Virus record (IMG/VR): IMGVR_UViG_2778261570_000006
Source of the DNA: a virus
Lineage: Duplodnaviria; Heunggongvirae; Uroviricota; Caudoviricetes
Length of the DNA stretch: 8,071 nt
Direction: 5' to 3' (one strand)
This document shows positions 3,559 to 6,678 of the stretch, piece by piece. Below the pieces are notes generated by a model, which saw only the letters and a list, made by a program, of their open reading frames with translations, was not told the origin of the DNA and made no database searches. The first letter of the stretch is position 1. Each line of letters opens with the position of its first letter. The position numbers and the translations under genes were made by a program.

Positions 3559-4023
3559 CTATTTCTTCATGCGTTTTTGAGCTGCCAGCATATTTTCAAA
3601 TGCTTCTTTGTAGAGTTCATTCTGACCTTTAAGTCTTTCGATTAGTTTTGCTTTTTCTGATTCGGGAAGGATATCAAAAAGATCTAGTAAATCAGCTTGT
3701 TGCTTGTTAACCATCCGCCAACCTTCGCCTTCGAAACTTTCGTCATAAGTTCCTGAGGAACGGACGTAATTCATCAGATCAGCTAAATCAGGCCTCAACT
3801 CTTCAGGCTTAACTCTTAGTAATACAGCGAATTTTAATGCCGCATCAGTATTAAGTGGAGCCTTTCCGTTGAGATAATGGCTAACCGCAGATTGCGCCTC
3901 AAAACCCATTAGCTCGGCAGCAAGCTCCTGAGTCAGTTTGAGCTCTCTTTTTTTTGCATCCCAGATTGCGCGCAGACGTTGCGTAGCTTCCGGCGATGCG
4001 ATTTCTTCGCGTTTTCTTCTCAT
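3559..4023 (-). CDS. racR: XRE-family HTH prophage repressor (RacR/DicA-like), 154 aa
   Basis: Track ORF. The segment LTQELAAELMGFEAQSAVSHYLNGK looks like an HTH. The C-terminal LPESEKAKL...LAAQKRMKK resembles my recollection of the DicA tail. It is divergent from the Cro-like gene and has its own terminator. The racR symbol is given by synteny; orthology is unverified. Confidence 0.6.
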   Translation of the reverse strand: MRRKREEIASPEATQRLRAIWDAKKRELKLTQELAAELMGFEAQSAVSHYLNGKAPLNTDAALKFAVLLRVKPEELRPDLADLMNYVRSSGTYDESFEGEGWRMVNKQQADLLDLFDILPESEKAKLIERLKGQNELYKEAFENMLAAQKRMKK

Positions 4024-4070: not shown

Positions 4071-4099
4071 TTGATCATTTAAATTAGTATGGTTAATAT
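4071..4099 (+). promoter_or_regulatory. pR-like rightward early promoter
   Basis: -35 TTGATC (4071-4076), 17-bp spacer, -10 TAATAT (4094-4099): the same hexamers and spacing as the leftward promoter. Upstream inverted repeat TTATGAA-N5-TTCATAA at 4033-4051. Confidence 0.45.
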
Positions 4100-4127
4100 T
4101 TTGGTGAGCATTACTGAGGTGACACTT

Positions 4128-4403
4128 ATGACATTAGATGAATATTTGAAAAAAAATCGTGTACGACAGTCTTGTTTGGCCGCGCTGGCTGGTTGTTCGC
4201 AATCAATGATTAGCCTCGCTGCTACTGGACGTAGTCAGTTAAGCCCTGAAAAGGTATTGCGTATCGCAGAGGCTACGAATTTCGAGGTTACACCTCATGA
4301 ACTCCGGCCTGATATCTACCCGAATCCGACCGATGGTTTACCTGTTGGATGTAAGGCTAACACACAAAATACACAGGAGTTGATTCATGAAAATCAGGCA
4401 TGA
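4128..4403 (+). CDS. ydaS: Cro/YdaS-like HTH regulator, 91 aa
   Basis: In frame with track ORF 4089..4403. Start set at ATG 4128 because GAGG (4116-4119) lies 5 nt upstream and the track's ATG 4089 falls inside the predicted promoter. Translation MTLDEYLKKNRVRQSCLAALAGCSQSMISLAATG... The ELRPDI motif fits my recollection of the YdaS family. Confidence 0.6.
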   Translation: MTLDEYLKKNRVRQSCLAALAGCSQSMISLAATGRSQLSPEKVLRIAEATNFEVTPHELRPDIYPNPTDGLPVGCKANTQNTQELIHENQA

Positions 4404-4809
4404 GCACATTGAGTCAGTGCTGTTAGCCCTGGCCGCTGAAAAAGGGCAGGCATGGGTAGCCAGTGCAATTACTGAAGAATATCTGCGCCAGGGAGGCGGC
4501 GAATTGCCCCTGGTACCAGGCAAGGACTGGAACAATCAGCAGAATATCTATCATCGTTGGTTGAAAGGTGAAACGAATGCGCAAAGGGAAAAAATTCAGA
4601 AACTGATCCCAGCAATTCTGGCAATCCTTCCGCGCGAGCTGCGTCACCGACTCTGCATCTTCGATACCCTGGAACGCCGTGCATTACTGGCGGCGCAGGA
4701 AGCGTTGAGTACGGCAATTGATGCGCATGATGATGCAGTCCAGGCCGTTTACCGGAAAGCACATTTCAGCGGTGGTGGAGCGTCCGACGATTCTGTTGTA
4801 GTGCATTGA
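4387..4809 (+). CDS. ydaT: YdaT-like protein (cII-position regulator/toxin family), 140 aa
   Basis: Track ORF; SD AGGAG (4375-4379) 7 nt upstream; overlaps the preceding gene by 17 nt. Translation MKIRHEHIESVLLALAAEKGQAWVASAITEEYLRQGGG... matches my recollection of Rac YdaT; not alignment-verified. Confidence 0.65.
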   Translation: MKIRHEHIESVLLALAAEKGQAWVASAITEEYLRQGGGELPLVPGKDWNNQQNIYHRWLKGETNAQREKIQKLIPAILAILPRELRHRLCIFDTLERRALLAAQEALSTAIDAHDDAVQAVYRKAHFSGGGASDDSVVVH

Positions 4810-4828
4810 TTGAATAGGGTATCCAATA

Positions 4829-5242
4829 ATGAAAATCAAACCGTACATAAATGCCGGAAATCTTACTCCCGGCGAACTACGAGACTGGATCCTGAAACTT
4901 GCAAAAAATGCAGAAATTGCGGGTTGGGGTACAGAAACTTCGGTTCGGAAGCTTCAGAGCGCAGAACTTAGCCTGCGCTCAGTTATGGACGATTTATCCC
5001 CAAGAATTAATTTTCTGGGGTCAGAGCAAATAATTCGTTCGGAAGGTCACTCCAGCGAAGTTGCGGAAGTTCTGAATACTCTGAGGATAACGTTTGCTGC
5101 CGTTCGCGATATTCAACGAACCATTCTCTCATTGATTTCTCAGCTTCAAGAAATTGATAGTCGCATTCCTGGCGGGGGTCATAGAGAGCGTCTTCCAGAA
5201 TGTGAAGAGCAAGGACAGGGGAAACAGATAAGGGATCAGTAA
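4829..5242 (+). CDS. Hypothetical protein (137 aa), candidate; its 3' part overlaps a convergent ORF
   Basis: Track ORF starting 19 nt after the ydaT-like stop, with a weak SD (AGGGT, 8-nt spacer). Hand-counted first-codon-position composition over about 60 codons is G/A-rich and T-poor, which is coding-like. Rare AT-rich codons. No recognisable family. Confidence 0.45.
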   Translation: MKIKPYINAGNLTPGELRDWILKLAKNAEIAGWGTETSVRKLQSAELSLRSVMDDLSPRINFLGSEQIIRSEGHSSEVAEVLNTLRITFAAVRDIQRTILSLISQLQEIDSRIPGGGHRERLPECEEQGQGKQIRDQ

Positions 5243-5462
5243 TACGTTTTTCACTTGCCTGGTATAGCAATCTCGCCAGCGAATCATAGCTACTGGGGCT
5301 CAGGAGAGAATCCCGTGAGTGATTTGTAAGAATCAGGTGGAAGCGGGTGAGAACTATAGCCCTGCATGTTACCAGGTTAACCATGTCGTGGTCGTGCTGG
5401 TTAATTTTGTACACAGTGCGCATGTGATTTTTAATTTTTTGGCAAACAGCCATTAAAGACAT
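5007..5462 (-). CDS. Hypothetical protein (151 aa), candidate; convergent with and overlapping the 137-aa ORF by 236 nt
   Basis: Track ORF. A perfect SD AAGGAGGT (complement of 5468-5475) lies 5 nt upstream of ATG 5462..5460, and a perfect -10 TATAAT (complement of 5502-5507) lies upstream of that. No recognisable family. Confidence 0.5.
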   Translation of the reverse strand: MSLMAVCQKIKNHMRTVYKINQHDHDMVNLVTCRAIVLTRFHLILTNHSRDSLLSPSSYDSLARLLYQASEKRITDPLSVSPVLALHILEDALYDPRQECDYQFLEAEKSMREWFVEYRERQQTLSSEYSELPQLRWSDLPNELFALTPEN

Positions 5463-5501
5463 GTCGAACCTCCTTTGGTTCTGTTGATTGGGGAATCACA
5501 G

Positions 5502-5530
5502 ATTATATCCGGAGGAAGGTTCGACACCAG
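5502..5530 (-). promoter_or_regulatory. Candidate promoter for the 151-aa minus-strand ORF
   Basis: Consensus -10 TATAAT on the minus strand, 39 nt upstream of the ATG. The -35 region (CTGGTG) is a poor match. It shares the intergenic space with the RBS of the plus-strand initiator gene. Confidence 0.3.
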
Positions 5531-5541
5531 ATGAGGCAATT

Positions 5542-6678
5542 ATGGTTAAGGCTAAAAACATGCCAAATCCCATGCCAAATCCCATGCCAAAAACTAAGGC
5601 AAACAACGAGCCTTATCGCAAGGTAAAAATAACGATATGGGATGATCCCAAATTTAGGGCGTTATCTCCTCTGCCTCCAAGTGGACAGAGTTTGTTTATT
5701 TATCTGCTGACCAGTCCATTTACCGGGATTATTCCTGGGTTGTTTAAAGCCGGGCGGGCAGCAATGGCTGAAGAGTTGGGGTGGGATATCGAAGCCTTTG
5801 ACTTAGCCTTAGGCGAAGCCATGAATCTTGGCATGGTGAAAGCAGATATCAAAGCCAGAGTTTTTTGGCTCCCGAATGCTGCGAAACACAATCCGCCAAA
5901 CTCGATAAATGTCATTAAATCCTGGGCAAAGGCATTCGCTTTAATTCCTGATTGCCCTCTCAAATGGGAGGCCAGGGAATCGCTGAGAGCCGCGTCCTAC
6001 GGGGTTTCTGAGGCTTTGGGGATGGCATTCGATAAGGCAATCCCTTTGCCTGAGGATAAGCCTAAGGATAAGGCTAACGCTTTGTCATGCGGTATCCAGA
6101 TAACAGATAACAGATATATAAACCCCACACATAACGCGCGCGTGCGCGAGAGTGTTCCGGCCAGTGAGGCAAATGGCGTGCCGTTGCAGACAGCGGAACC
6201 TGATTACCTGGAAGGCCTGAGCGAACCCATCGGGAAATTTCCGATGACCGATGGCTGGCATCCGTCGCCGGATTTTCGACGACGGGCTGCGCTGTGGGGC
6301 GTGGCTCTTCCTGAGCCGGAATTTACACCAGCTGAACTTGCCGCCTTCCGGGACTACTGGACAGCGGAGGGGAAAGTTTTCACGCAGGTTCAGTGGGAGC
6401 AGAAATTCGCCCGTCACGTACATCACGTCAGGGCGCAGGTTAAACCAGTCAGCAAGGGGGGGAACCATGCAGCAACGCCAGGTGGCACCGCATCACGGGC
6501 AGTTCAGGAAATTCGGGCAGCACGTGAGCAGTGGGAACGTGAAAACGGATTTATCCTCGACGGAAACGGCGTGGAAGCTGTGGGAACTCATGGGGGAGGT
6601 TTATTCGAACCGCTGGACCCAGAAGAACGGGGCCGCACCTTCGAAGCTCTGGATTGCACAGATTGGTGCGATGACTGA
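5542..6678 (+). CDS. Phage replication initiator / replisome organiser with DnaT-like C-terminal domain (O / YdaU-position), about 378 aa
   Basis: Track ORF 5488..6678 begins at TTG. The first in-frame ATG with an SD is 5542 (GAGG at 5533-5536, 5-nt spacer). The C-terminal block [43 protein letters not shown] resembles DnaT-like domains as I recall them. The last 212 nt overlap the P-like frame. Confidence 0.6.
5560..5594 (+). repeat. In-frame 12-bp tandem repeat ATGCCAAATCCC, about 2.9 copies, encoding [11 protein letters not shown]
   Basis: Exact copies at 5560-5571 and 5572-5583, and a partial copy at 5584-5594. Each unit starts with an in-frame ATG. Confidence 0.85.
6031..6148. repeat. 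Iteron-like GATAA repeats, AT-rich tract and GC palindrome inside the initiator gene; candidate replication origin
   Basis: GATAAGGC at 6031-6038, GATAAGCCTAAG / GATAAGGCTAAC at 6055-6078, CAGATAA x2 plus CAGATAT at 6097-6117, ATATATAAA, then ACGCGCGCGTGCGCG at 6134-6148. This sits in the predicted linker between the N-terminal domain and the DnaT-like domain. Confidence 0.35.

What the first reader, a model, noticed from the sequence alone, without database searches (positions are those of the whole stretch)
4810..5541. Convergent, 3'-overlapping ORF pair inserted between the ydaT-like gene and the replication genes
Two ORFs face each other and share 236 nt (5007-5242): plus 4829..5242 (137 aa) and minus 5007..5462 (151 aa). 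The minus ORF has a perfect SD (AAGGAGGT, 5-nt spacer) and a consensus -10 TATAAT. The plus ORF has the more coding-like first-position composition. Neither product resembles anything I recognise. As I recall, K-12 Rac has ydaU directly after ydaT, so this looks like an inserted cargo island of about 650 bp. Such an antisense-coupled pair could be a small toxin/antitoxin-like or abortive-infection-type accessory module, or a single gene with a shadow ORF.
Basis: partly seen in the sequence, partly recalled or inferred. Interest (0 to 1): 0.65.

Follow-up and report, generated by a model that had tools for sequence, protein, structure and literature searches.

The report
Two prophage genes sharing opposite strands
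Two previously uncharacterised prophage genes are written on opposite strands of the same 236 bases, and both have stayed protein-coding and overlapping through very deep divergence, which is rare in bacteria and phages and suggests the overlap couples their expression.

Summary
Its "shadow ORF" alternative is rejected.

- **Island:** window 4811-5475 is a 665-bp island, absent from K-12 Rac and from a close relative.
- **Gene A:** 4829-5242 (+), 137 aa, phrog_37051. It reads with the early lytic operon.
- **Gene B:** 5462-5007 (-), 151 aa, confidently modelled as all-helical, with no family or fold match. It reads against that operon from a strongly conserved leader with a promoter-like layout (5463-5530).
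- **Conservation of the pair:** every intact B homologue I could read carries an A homologue overlapping its 3' end by 194-272 nt. This holds down to 24% identity, in E. coli, Salmonella, Serratia and uncultured viral contigs.
- **A is a real gene:** its N-terminal 60 residues lie outside B and are conserved as protein while synonymous sites are saturated. Most lineages have a ribosome-binding site before A.
- **Double constraint:** synonymous change is suppressed in both frames within the overlap.
- **Orientation:** in three operon contexts A is sense and B antisense to early transcription.

Function is unknown; neither protein matches a known toxin-antitoxin or defence family. My inferred reading is a lysogen/lytic toggle in which B is made when early transcription is off and A when it is on, perhaps an exclusion-plus-antidote pair.

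An O157:H7 prophage pair (ECs1072) has the same architecture.

The parts
4811..5475 (.). Inserted island that carries the two-gene module
   Evidence: An island-less relative (L052, E. coli NCTC9112) aligns to window 4627-4810 (85%) and 5476-5545 (90%), with only about 20 unrelated nt between them. In K-12 Rac, ydaT and ydaU are 12 nt apart.
4829..5242 (+). Gene A, 137 aa, sense to the early lytic (pR-type) operon, directly after the cII-like ydaT gene (4387-4809)
   Evidence: It matches phrog_37051 full length, E 1.9e-91. Homologous ORFs occur in every intact divergent locus (alignment A3). In the unique N-terminal 59 codons, aa identity is 0.32 while identical-codon use is only 0.36, so synonymous sites are saturated. 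dN/dS is 0.1-0.5 among close relatives, against about 1-3 in control frames. GGAGG-type SD sequences precede the ATG in most lineages. PGAP does not annotate this gene.
5007..5462 (-). Gene B, 151 aa, antisense to the early lytic operon
5007..5242 (.). 236-nt doubly coding 3'-3' overlap (A position 1 opposite B position 1, A position 2 opposite B position 3, A position 3 opposite B position 2)
   Evidence: Identical-codon fraction at conserved residues rises from 0.43 (unique part) to 0.60 (overlap) in B, and from 0.36 to 0.76 in A, in 35 of 36 lineage pairs. A-frame identity over B's last 50 codons is 0.41, against 0.21-0.22 (sd 0.012) when B is resampled synonymously. Overlap length is 194-272 nt in other lineages.
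5463..5530 (-). Conserved leader of B with a promoter-like layout: -35 CTGGTG (5530-5525), 17-nt spacer (5524-5508), -10 TATAAT (5507-5502), untranslated leader, SD AAGGAGGT (5475-5468)
   Evidence: This block is much more conserved than either coding region across 13+ lineages (alignment A4). A TAnnnT hexamer, often with a TGn extension, is kept at the same place in every lineage. The simple sigma-70 scan does not pick it up, because the -35 is weak. The same block lies in front of the ECs1072 gene in O157:H7.
5461..5528 (.). Imperfect inverted repeat or long hairpin. The promoter spacer (CGAACCTTCC, about 5514-5523) is complementary to the SD/start region (GGAGGTTCGACAT, 5461-5473), with an inner hairpin (5480-5500)
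   Evidence: Minus-sense RNA folds at -31.6 kcal/mol (z -3.8) and plus-sense at -36.3 kcal/mol (z -5.0). 80% of cells are paired, and the covariation score is 0.138 against 0.094 in shuffles (0 of 500 reach it). The inner helix has 5 of 9 pairs changed on both sides. Which strand matters is undecided.
4853..4873 (-). Weak terminator-like hairpin downstream of B, inside A's codons 9-15
   Evidence: Found by the simple scan. The stem is weakened in the 85%-identical relative L048 and absent in others, and L032 has no terminator-like site inside the module. It is therefore not a conserved feature.

Best explanation
Window 4811-5475 is a mobile two-gene prophage module.

**Shown**
- Gene A (4829-5242, +) and gene B (5462-5007, -) are both real protein-coding genes.
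- Their last 236 nt are the same DNA read on opposite strands.
- Pair and overlap are kept together through divergence to about 24-30% identity.
- Wherever the module sits, A points the way early lytic transcription runs and B points against it. B has its own conserved promoter-like leader.

**Inferred**
- While the repressor keeps early transcription off (lysogen), B is made from its own promoter and A is silent.
- After induction or infection, early transcription crosses the whole of B in antisense and produces A. RNA polymerase collision and a duplex of at least 236 bp between the two mRNAs push B expression down.
- The two proteins are therefore expressed in opposite states.
- The most likely purpose is an accessory function of the lysogen carried out by B (exclusion or abortive-infection-like, or a regulatory brake). 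A, an early protein, relieves or replaces it. The logic is that of P22 sieB/esc or lambda rex/ren, but the biochemistry is unknown.
For: **Both genes are real**
- B homologues align without gaps over 151 aa at 49-58% identity. The wider family reaches 22-31% identity.
- B gives a confident AF2 model (pLDDT 91.4).
- An A homologue is present and overlapping in every intact locus read: L003, L004/5, L006, L032-L045, L089/90 and L091/92.
- A's N-terminal domain, outside B, carries the conserved motif KPYI-AG-L-P-EL--W (alignment A3). Synonymous sites there are saturated (identical-codon fraction 0.36).
- dN/dS in A's unique part is 0.1-0.5, against about 1-3 in control frames.
- SD sequences precede A's ATG in most lineages.

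**The overlap is doubly constrained**
- Open-frame probability under synonymous reshuffling of B is 1e-11 to 4e-8 jointly over 9 lineages.
- Synonymous variation is suppressed in both frames inside the overlap.
- A-frame identity is 0.41, against 0.21 expected from B's constraint alone.

**Orientation rule across contexts**
- After cro or a cII-like gene in pR-type operons (window).
- In 186/P2-like early regions (L006; L037).
- In the pL arm between cI and kilR (L091/92).
- In all of them A is sense and B antisense to the early operon.

**B has its own expression signals**
- A conserved -35/-10/SD block precedes B.
- No conserved intrinsic terminator separates the genes, so convergent transcripts should overlap.

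**Lysogen expression of the slot**
- The ECs1072 gene sits behind the same leader in O157:H7. It is among the genes that change more than 4-fold at the stationary-phase transition in uninduced cultures (PMC2241611, Table 2).
Against: - There are no expression data for this locus. The promoter is inferred from conservation only: its -35 is weak and the consensus scan does not report it.
- The inner hairpin, which shows covariation, would be cut by a start site 7 nt after the -10. Either the start site or the strand on which the structure matters is not yet understood.
- A's last 25 or so residues are poorly conserved (identity 0.21) and its stop position varies. Part of the overlap may therefore be tolerated read-through rather than function.
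- Nothing links either protein to exclusion, toxicity or regulation: there are no Pfam, NCBIfam, PADLOC, PDB-sequence or fold matches.
- An A-B protein interaction was not testable here.
- The lineages are related, so the joint probabilities are upper-bound impressions rather than exact P values.
Confidence: 0.5

Rival explanations
1. Both are real genes, but the overlap is a frozen accident with no regulatory role. A is simply an early lytic gene and B an independent moron-like gene. One gene's 3' end once extended into the other, and separation is now difficult.
For: - A's C-terminal tail is poorly conserved and variable in length. The overlap ranges from 194 to 272 nt, and is 317 nt in the ECs1072-type pair.
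- In B's C-terminal motif, B's sequence is held while A's residues change in distant lineages.
- An overlap, once formed, is mechanically hard to undo.
Against: - The pair has moved between at least three operon contexts and several replication modules, always as a unit and always in the same orientation relative to early transcription.
- No intact B homologue without A was found.
- A's core inside the overlap (residues 60-112) is conserved beyond what B's constraint imposes.
Confidence: 0.25
2. A toxin-antitoxin or abortive-infection module with type I-like logic. One product is toxic, and the convergent transcript (and perhaps its protein) neutralises it through the 3' RNA duplex, as in par/fst, bsrG/SR4 or txpA/RatA.
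For: - It has a convergent 3'-overlapping architecture on a prophage island.
- The two genes are strictly co-inherited.
- It sits among other TA and kil genes of Rac-like prophages, namely relBE, hokD, kilR and doc.
Against: - Neither product is a small hydrophobic peptide. Both are acidic, soluble proteins of 137 and 151 aa with no membrane segment.
- Both transcripts are protein-coding under selection, so neither is a plain antitoxin RNA.
- There are no PADLOC, Pfam or NCBIfam hits.
- In the lysogen only one partner is expected to be expressed, which does not fit a constitutively balanced TA pair.
Confidence: 0.12
3. A lysis-lysogeny control device equivalent to lambda cII/oop. The leftward promoter just upstream of the replication gene is the pO equivalent. 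B's mRNA acts mainly as a long antisense RNA that lowers the upstream early message (A and the cII-like gene) and interferes with read-through into O/P. B's protein is secondary.
For: - The position is exactly that of pO/oop: a leftward promoter abutting the O-like gene, antisense to the 3' end of the preceding pR-operon gene.
- The promoter part of the block (5476-5545) is also present in island-less relatives, where it faces ydaT directly.
- In several phages A occupies the place of cII, straight after cro.
Against: - B is a well-conserved, confidently folded protein, not a by-product.
- The pair also occurs in the pL arm, far from cII/O, with a different leader.
- A shows no helix-turn-helix or CII-like signal.
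Confidence: 0.1
4. Only the minus ORF (B) is a gene. The plus ORF is a chance shadow ORF that annotation pipelines sometimes pick up.
For: - PGAP annotates only B.
- The word-indexed protein search with A found only close relatives, at 85% identity or more.
- A's SD in this window is weak (AGGGT).
Against: - A's unique N-terminal 59 codons lie outside B and are conserved as protein in 12+ divergent lineages with saturated synonymous sites.
- The frame stays open in every lineage.
- Good SD sequences are found elsewhere.
- An independent gene caller called both genes in L091/92.
- The lack of distant hits is explained by gene callers suppressing one of two genes that overlap this much.
Confidence: 0.03

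Closest known systems
Antisense overlapping gene pairs described in E. coli O157:H7 and Pseudomonas (e.g. PMC9927249, PMC8850804)
   Same: Two protein-coding frames lie on opposite strands of the same DNA, and the overlapping partner is missed by standard annotation.
   Different: Those cases are taxonomically young: the 'mother gene' is always more widely distributed than the overlapping gene (PMC9927249). They rest mainly on expression data. Here the two partners co-occur across the whole family down to about 24% identity, the overlap is tail-to-tail rather than embedded, and the evidence is comparative, with no expression data yet.
Lambda cII / oop RNA (pO promoter)
   Same: A leftward promoter lies directly upstream of the replication initiator gene, and its transcript is antisense to the 3' end of the preceding pR-operon gene (established lambda biology; position shown).
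   Different: oop is a 77-nt non-coding RNA with its own terminator. Here the antisense transcript encodes a conserved 151-aa protein, the sense target is a new gene (A) rather than cII, and no sequence similarity is claimed.
Type I toxin-antitoxin loci with convergent 3'-overlapping transcripts (par/fst of pAD1; bsrG/SR4 and txpA/RatA of B. subtilis prophages)
   Same: Convergent transcription units that overlap at their 3' ends, located on mobile elements or prophages, with the two partners inherited together.
   Different: In those loci the toxins are small hydrophobic peptides and the antitoxins are RNAs. Here both partners are soluble acidic proteins of about 140-150 aa and both frames are under protein-level selection.
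P22 sieB/esc and lambda rexAB/ren (a prophage exclusion function plus the phage's own escape function)
   Same: The proposed logic is the same: a lysogen-expressed function is opposed by an early lytic product of the same phage, and in sieB/esc the two are encoded by overlapping DNA (established knowledge).
   Different: esc is an in-frame internal product on the same strand. There is no sequence or fold similarity to A or B, and the exclusion function of B is only a hypothesis.
ECs1072 family phage-associated protein (NCBIfam NF033230) of O157:H7 prophages
   Same: It occupies the same slot between the ydaT-like and replication genes, on the same strand, has the same length (151 aa) and sits behind the same leader at 92.7% identity. 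An unannotated antisense ORF of 169 aa overlaps its 3' end by 317 nt and carries an A-like N-terminal motif.
   Different: B does not match NF033230. The profile comparison of B with ECs1072 is weak (probability 6.5-13%). Only the A-like partner shows suggestive homology (probability 57%, E 1e-4).

Membership tests
phrog_37051 (phage protein family of unknown function) | Full-length match to the family profile | tested here: met
   A matches over 1-137 of 137 positions, E 1.9e-91. All 12 divergent A homologues also match.
ECs1072 family (NCBIfam NF033230) | Score above the curated cut-off (70 bits) against the family model | tested here: not met
   B and three divergent homologues give no hit at E <= 1. 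The O157:H7 protein itself scores 105.7 bits.
ECs1072 family (NCBIfam NF033230) | Same genomic slot, leader and overlapping antisense partner | tested here: met
   This is a shared architecture, not proof of homology.
Type I toxin-antitoxin (3'-overlapping class) | Toxin is a small hydrophobic, membrane-active peptide | tested here: not met
   A is 137 aa and B is 151 aa. GRAVY is -0.45 and -0.42, and the maximum 19-residue hydropathy is 0.9 and 1.5, so neither has a membrane segment.
Type I toxin-antitoxin (3'-overlapping class) | Antitoxin is a non-coding antisense RNA | tested here: not met
   Both strands carry ORFs under protein-level purifying selection.
Type I toxin-antitoxin (3'-overlapping class) | Convergent transcription units overlapping at their 3' ends | tested here: met
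   The overlap is 236 nt here and 194-272 nt in relatives.
Type II toxin-antitoxin | Co-directional two-gene operon with a recognisable toxin or antitoxin domain | tested here: not met
   The genes are convergent, and there are no Pfam, NCBIfam or PADLOC domains.
Known anti-phage defence systems (PADLOC-DB 2.0) | Match to any defence-system protein model | tested here: not met
   There are no hits at E <= 1 for A, B or three divergent B homologues.
Genuine antisense overlapping gene pair | Both frames intact and under purifying selection across homologous loci | tested here: met
Genuine antisense overlapping gene pair | Transcription and translation of both frames demonstrated | not testable with these tools
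   No expression data are available for this locus. The only evidence is an indirect microarray signal for the ECs1072 gene (PMC2241611).
Moron (prophage accessory gene with its own promoter and terminator) | Autonomous promoter upstream of the gene | tested here: inconclusive
   A conserved TTGGTG - 17 nt - TAnnnT block precedes B, but the consensus scan does not report it and there is no start-site mapping.
Moron (prophage accessory gene with its own promoter and terminator) | Intrinsic terminator after the gene | tested here: not met
   Only lineage-specific weak candidates were found: window 4873-4853 and L040 3476-3490. L032 has none inside the module.
Lambda oop-type antisense RNA | Leftward promoter abutting the replication initiator gene, antisense to the preceding pR-operon gene | tested here: met
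   The promoter segment is also present in an island-less relative.
Lambda oop-type antisense RNA | Short non-coding transcript ending at its own terminator | tested here: not met
   The transcript carries a conserved 151-aa ORF, and there is no conserved terminator.

The most novel reading that the evidence does not exclude
A/B, and probably the ECs1072-type pair found in about a tenth of complete E. coli genomes including O157:H7, represent a new class of prophage module. In it, two proteins with opposed roles are encoded on opposite strands of the same DNA, and the coding overlap itself is the switch. Early lytic transcription makes A and at the same time silences B, so a lysogen-state function (exclusion, abortive infection or a replication brake) is turned off and neutralised exactly when the phage commits to lytic growth.
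Probability: 0.3. Interest if true: 0.85.

Novelty: new variant of a known kind. Interest (0 to 1): 0.72.

Why it matters
**For the overlapping-gene debate.** Long antisense coding overlaps in bacteria and phages are disputed. Most reported cases are young, lineage-restricted and supported mainly by expression data. This pair offers the opposite kind of evidence: two protein families of unknown function that have stayed overlapped, both under protein-level constraint, through divergence to about 25% identity and through relocation between operons. That makes it a clean test case for whether, and why, antisense dual coding is maintained.

**For annotation.** Standard pipelines report only one partner. 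RefSeq drops A, and other callers drop B. A whole gene family is therefore systematically missing from E. coli and Salmonella prophage annotation, probably including a partner of ECs1072 in O157:H7.

**For phage biology.** If the toggle model holds, this is a new way for temperate phages to tie an accessory function to the lysogenic/lytic state.

Tried and rejected
**Family searches found nothing beyond phrog_37051**
- Pfam, NCBIfam and PADLOC scans of A, B and divergent B homologues gave nothing.
- PHROGs recognises only A, as phrog_37051 of unknown function, and nothing for B.
- Profile searches against PDB sequences gave only compositional hits: designed coiled coils for A (E 2.7e-4) and nothing below E 0.3 for B.

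**Structure**
- The first AF2 model of B, from a shallow alignment, was poor (pLDDT 63). The deeper alignment fixed it.
- AFDB50 was unavailable.
- A's structure could not be predicted.

**Other searches**
- Rfam gave no hit for the leader or anything else in 4700-5700.
- The genome-contig scan gave only one extra locus, a degenerate copy in Trabulsiella.
I therefore could not ask directly whether A ever occurs without B.
- tblastn against 50,697 phage records found the module in only one record.
- Literature searches for the pair, for ECs1072 and for WP_000273724 found no functional study.

**Readings considered and dropped**
- LexA box, lambda CII TTGC-N6-TTGC site, and sigma-54 or sigma-E type promoter readings of the leader: by eye, the spacings or invariant bases do not fit (my own inspection, no tool).
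- B's C-terminal motif as a disordered peptide ligand such as a clamp-binding motif: the model places it at pLDDT 83-93, so it is structured rather than disordered.
Full report
**Observation**

They share 5007-5242, which is 236 nt.

B is preceded by AAGGAGGT (5475-5468), a 5-nt spacer and ATG. A TATAAT lies on the minus strand at 5507-5502.

The setting is the early region of a Rac-like lambdoid prophage:
- a DicA/RacR-like repressor (3559-4023, -)
- a YdaS/Cro-like gene (4089-4403, +)
- a YdaT/CII-like gene (4387-4809, +)
- then A and B
- then a DnaT-domain O-like gene, a lambda-P-like gene and a DUF1627 gene

**It is an inserted island**

K-12 Rac has ydaU 12 nt after ydaT. A closer island-less relative, E. 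coli NCTC9112, aligns to window 4627-4810 and again to 5476-5545, with about 20 unrelated bases in between. The island is therefore about 4811-5475, 665 bp.

It is rare. 22 of 5,426 complete E. coli genomes hold at least 80% of 4700-5600. Only one of 50,697 phage records holds it.

**Is the plus ORF a shadow?**

At first sight the evidence pointed that way. PGAP annotates only B, one phage record annotates both, and a protein search with A found only relatives at 85% identity or more. B, in contrast, has full-length, gapless 151-aa homologues at 49-58% identity in Salmonella and Serratia prophages.

I then read the DNA of the divergent loci directly. Every one has an antisense ORF that starts beyond B's stop codon and ends inside B.

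Its first 60 or so residues lie outside B, so B cannot constrain them. They are conserved as protein: M..KPYI(N/S/D)AG(N/D)L(S/T)P.EL..W(I/L), followed by further conserved positions (alignment A3).

This holds for:
- distant loci from viral contigs where B is only 29-37% identical
- Salmonella loci where B is 24% identical

GGAGG-type ribosome-binding sites sit 5-9 nt before A's ATG in most lineages. The window's own site is weak.

The lack of distant hits has a simple cause. Gene callers suppress one of two genes that overlap by more than about 200 nt. Public protein clusters contain B in some assemblies (138 members) and A in others (118 members).

**Selection tests**

| Test | Result |
|---|---|
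| dN/dS among relatives 84-98% identical, A's unique part | 0.1-0.5, against about 1-3 in the two control frames |
| dN/dS in B's unique part | about 0.1-0.7 in most pairs; the two L050 comparisons with only one synonymous difference gave 2.3 |
| dN/dS inside the overlap, both frames | about 0.15-0.7 |
| Identical-codon fraction at conserved residues, B (9 divergent lineages) | 0.43 unique, 0.60 overlap |
| Identical-codon fraction at conserved residues, A | 0.36 unique, 0.76 overlap; higher in the overlap in 35 of 36 pairs |
| Antisense frame stays open when B's codons are reshuffled synonymously | 2-30% per lineage; about 1e-11 to 4e-8 jointly over nine lineages |
| A-frame identity over B's last 50 codons | 0.41 observed, 0.21-0.22 (sd 0.012) expected from B's protein alone |

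Synonymous sites outside the overlap are close to saturation, so the protein-level conservation there is selection, not shared history. Inside the overlap each gene's silent sites are held by the other gene.

The lineages are related, so the joint probabilities are not exact. The direction is unambiguous: both frames are coding.

The constraint is uneven:
- In B's invariant C-terminal pattern LPELxWxDLPxELF, B wins and A's residues drift in distant lineages.
- A's last 25 or so residues are poorly conserved (identity 0.21) and of variable length.
- The overlap is 194-272 nt elsewhere.

**The proteins**

B belongs to a small family, with 23 cluster representatives among 1.8 billion proteins. 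With a 32-sequence alignment, AlphaFold gives a confident all-helical model (pLDDT 91.4, pTM 0.87), including the C-terminal motif at pLDDT 83-93.

A matches phrog_37051, of unknown function. A profile of the A family hits only designed coiled coils in the PDB, which is compositional.

Neither protein hits Pfam, NCBIfam or PADLOC. Both are acidic and soluble, without membrane segments.

**Context and orientation**

The pair accompanies different replication modules:
- DnaT/P type
- DnaC-like
- DnaB plus IstB
- Phg_2220

It follows either a cro-like or a cII-like gene. It also occurs in 186/P2-like early regions. In one lineage it lies in the pL arm, between the cI repressor and kilR. There an independent gene caller called both genes, overlapping by 194 nt.

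In all of these, A runs with the early lytic operon and B runs against it. The only B homologue found without a recognisable A N-terminus is a degenerate copy on a 5-kb Trabulsiella contig, where the public annotation calls only an 89-aa B fragment.

**B's leader**

The 68 nt before B's ATG (5463-5530) are far better conserved than either coding sequence, even where B is only about 25-30% identical.

The block reads as a promoter:
- (T/C)TGGTG as the -35
- a 17-nt spacer
- a TAnnnT hexamer, TATAAT here and often TGnTAGCCT elsewhere
- then a leader with a perfect SD

The -35 is weak, and the simple consensus scan does not report this site. The promoter is therefore an inference from conservation.

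The spacer (CGAACCTTCC) is the reverse complement of the SD/start region (GGAGGTTCGACAT). Either strand can fold into a long hairpin, at -31.6 and -36.3 kcal/mol with z-scores of -3.8 and -5.0. The inner helix shows compensatory changes in 5 of 9 pairs, and the overall covariation score exceeds all 500 shuffles.

A transcript started from the inferred promoter would lack the 5' arm and so have a free SD. Read-through transcripts from upstream, and the early-operon RNA on the other strand, would contain the whole hairpin. I could not decide which of these matters. There is no Rfam match.

The promoter half of the block (5476-5545) is also present in the island-less relative, where it faces ydaT directly. 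That is the position of lambda's pO/oop promoter relative to cII and O.

**A wider family of the same design**

The 91-nt leader query matches 635 of 5,426 complete E. coli genomes. In O157:H7 prophages it sits in front of the "ECs1072 family phage-associated protein". That protein is also 151 aa, on the same strand, in the same slot.

An unannotated 169-aa ORF runs antisense to it and overlaps its 3' end by 317 nt. It is kept in a relative whose ECs1072 protein is 74% identical. Its N-terminus resembles A's motif: GGLSDVELAEWLIHKA, with hhalign probability 57% and E 1e-4.

The ECs1072 protein itself aligns to B only weakly, though in register (probability 6.5-13%), and B does not match the ECs1072 model. 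I therefore treat this as the same architecture and possibly a distant homologue, not as membership.

ECs1072 is listed among genes changing more than 4-fold at the stationary-phase transition in uninduced Sakai cultures (PMC2241611, Table 2). This is weak evidence that the slot is transcribed in lysogens.

In another E. coli prophage the same leader precedes an unrelated 97-aa gene.

**How it most likely works**

*Shown:* there are two real genes, an obligate overlapping pair, a fixed orientation relative to early transcription, B's own conserved expression signals, and no conserved terminator between the genes.

*Inferred:*
- With the repressor on, B is expressed and A is not.
- When early transcription fires, it must cross all of B in antisense to reach the downstream genes. 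It makes A, and it should depress B by polymerase collision and by a duplex of at least 236 bp between the mRNAs.
- The simplest purpose is to tie a lysogen-state function of B to an early lytic product A that relieves or replaces it. This is the logic of P22 sieB/esc or lambda rex/ren (established knowledge, used as analogy only).

My confidence, step by step:
- about 0.9 that both genes are real and co-selected
- about 0.5 for reciprocal expression
- about 0.25 for an exclusion-plus-antidote function

**Rivals**

1. A frozen-accident overlap between two independent genes (0.25).
2. A type I-like toxin-antitoxin or abortive-infection module (0.12). The convergent 3' overlap fits, but the small hydrophobic toxin and the non-coding antitoxin are both tested and not met.
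3. An oop-like antisense control in which B's RNA is the effector (0.10).
4. The shadow-ORF reading (0.03).

**Comparison with what is known**

Published antisense overlapping genes in E. coli and Pseudomonas are taxonomically young, and their "mother genes" are more widely distributed than the overlapping partner (PMC9927249; PMC8850804). Here the two partners co-occur over the whole depth of both families.

I found no paper on this pair or on ECs1072 function.

I rate it a new variant of a known kind: a genuine antisense overlapping gene pair in a prophage accessory slot. It is unusual in its depth of conservation and its orientation rule, and both proteins lack any family or fold assignment.

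Noticed in passing
window 5463-5530 (and L003-L090 upstream of B homologues): The 68-nt block before B is far more conserved than the coding DNA. Its promoter-like spacer is complementary to the SD/start region, giving a long hairpin on either strand with some covariation in the inner helix. There is no Rfam family, and the strand and role are unresolved.
   Followed up: partly
L053 2809-3544 (E. coli O157:H7 TR01; the same arrangement in L055-L088): The ECs1072 family gene (151 aa) sits in the same slot behind the same leader. An unannotated 169-aa antisense ORF overlaps its 3' end by 317 nt and is kept at 74% divergence. The leader is found in 635 of 5,426 complete E. coli genomes.
   Followed up: partly
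L054 2629-3003 (E. coli 88-3493): An 80%-identical copy of the leader precedes an unrelated 97-aa gene right after a cro-like gene. A 117-aa ORF on the other strand overlaps it almost completely. The slot may take different cargo.
   Followed up: no
L091 3001-3844 and L092 2477-3320: A 38%-identical B homologue and a 194-aa A homologue (with an N-terminal extension) lie in the pL arm between cI and kilR. The leader there lacks both arms of the inverted repeat but keeps the -10.
   Followed up: partly
window 5560-5595: A 12-nt unit ATGCCAAATCCC is repeated about three times at the 5' end of the O-like gene ([11 protein letters not shown]). On the minus strand it gives TTGGCA repeats, one of which forms a promoter-like site with CATAAT (5566-5539). 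That site would start a transcript just upstream of the conserved block.
   Followed up: no
window 5488-5752: The start of the O-like replication gene is ambiguous. The longest ORF begins at TTG 5488, the phage record uses ATG 5542, and PGAP in the identical E. coli sequence starts at the equivalent of 5752.
   Followed up: no
L002 (PP818812.1, 'Actinobacillus phage vB_Apl-pPE4'): This record is 98.9% identical to the window over 880 nt and has a typical E. coli Rac-like gene order (recE, kilR, dicA, ydaT). The stated Actinobacillus host looks doubtful.
   Followed up: no
L052 2611-2700 (E. coli NCTC9112): In the island-less relative, the leftward promoter-like segment faces the 3' end of ydaT directly. 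This is the geometry of lambda pO/oop relative to cII, so an oop-like antisense RNA may exist in Rac-like prophages.
   Followed up: no
L007 1427-1957 (Trabulsiella guamensis): This is a degenerate copy. The public annotation calls only an 89-aa fragment of B, A's N-terminal domain is replaced by unrelated sequence, and the leader carries changes in both arms of the repeat (CTGA/TCAG).
   Followed up: partly
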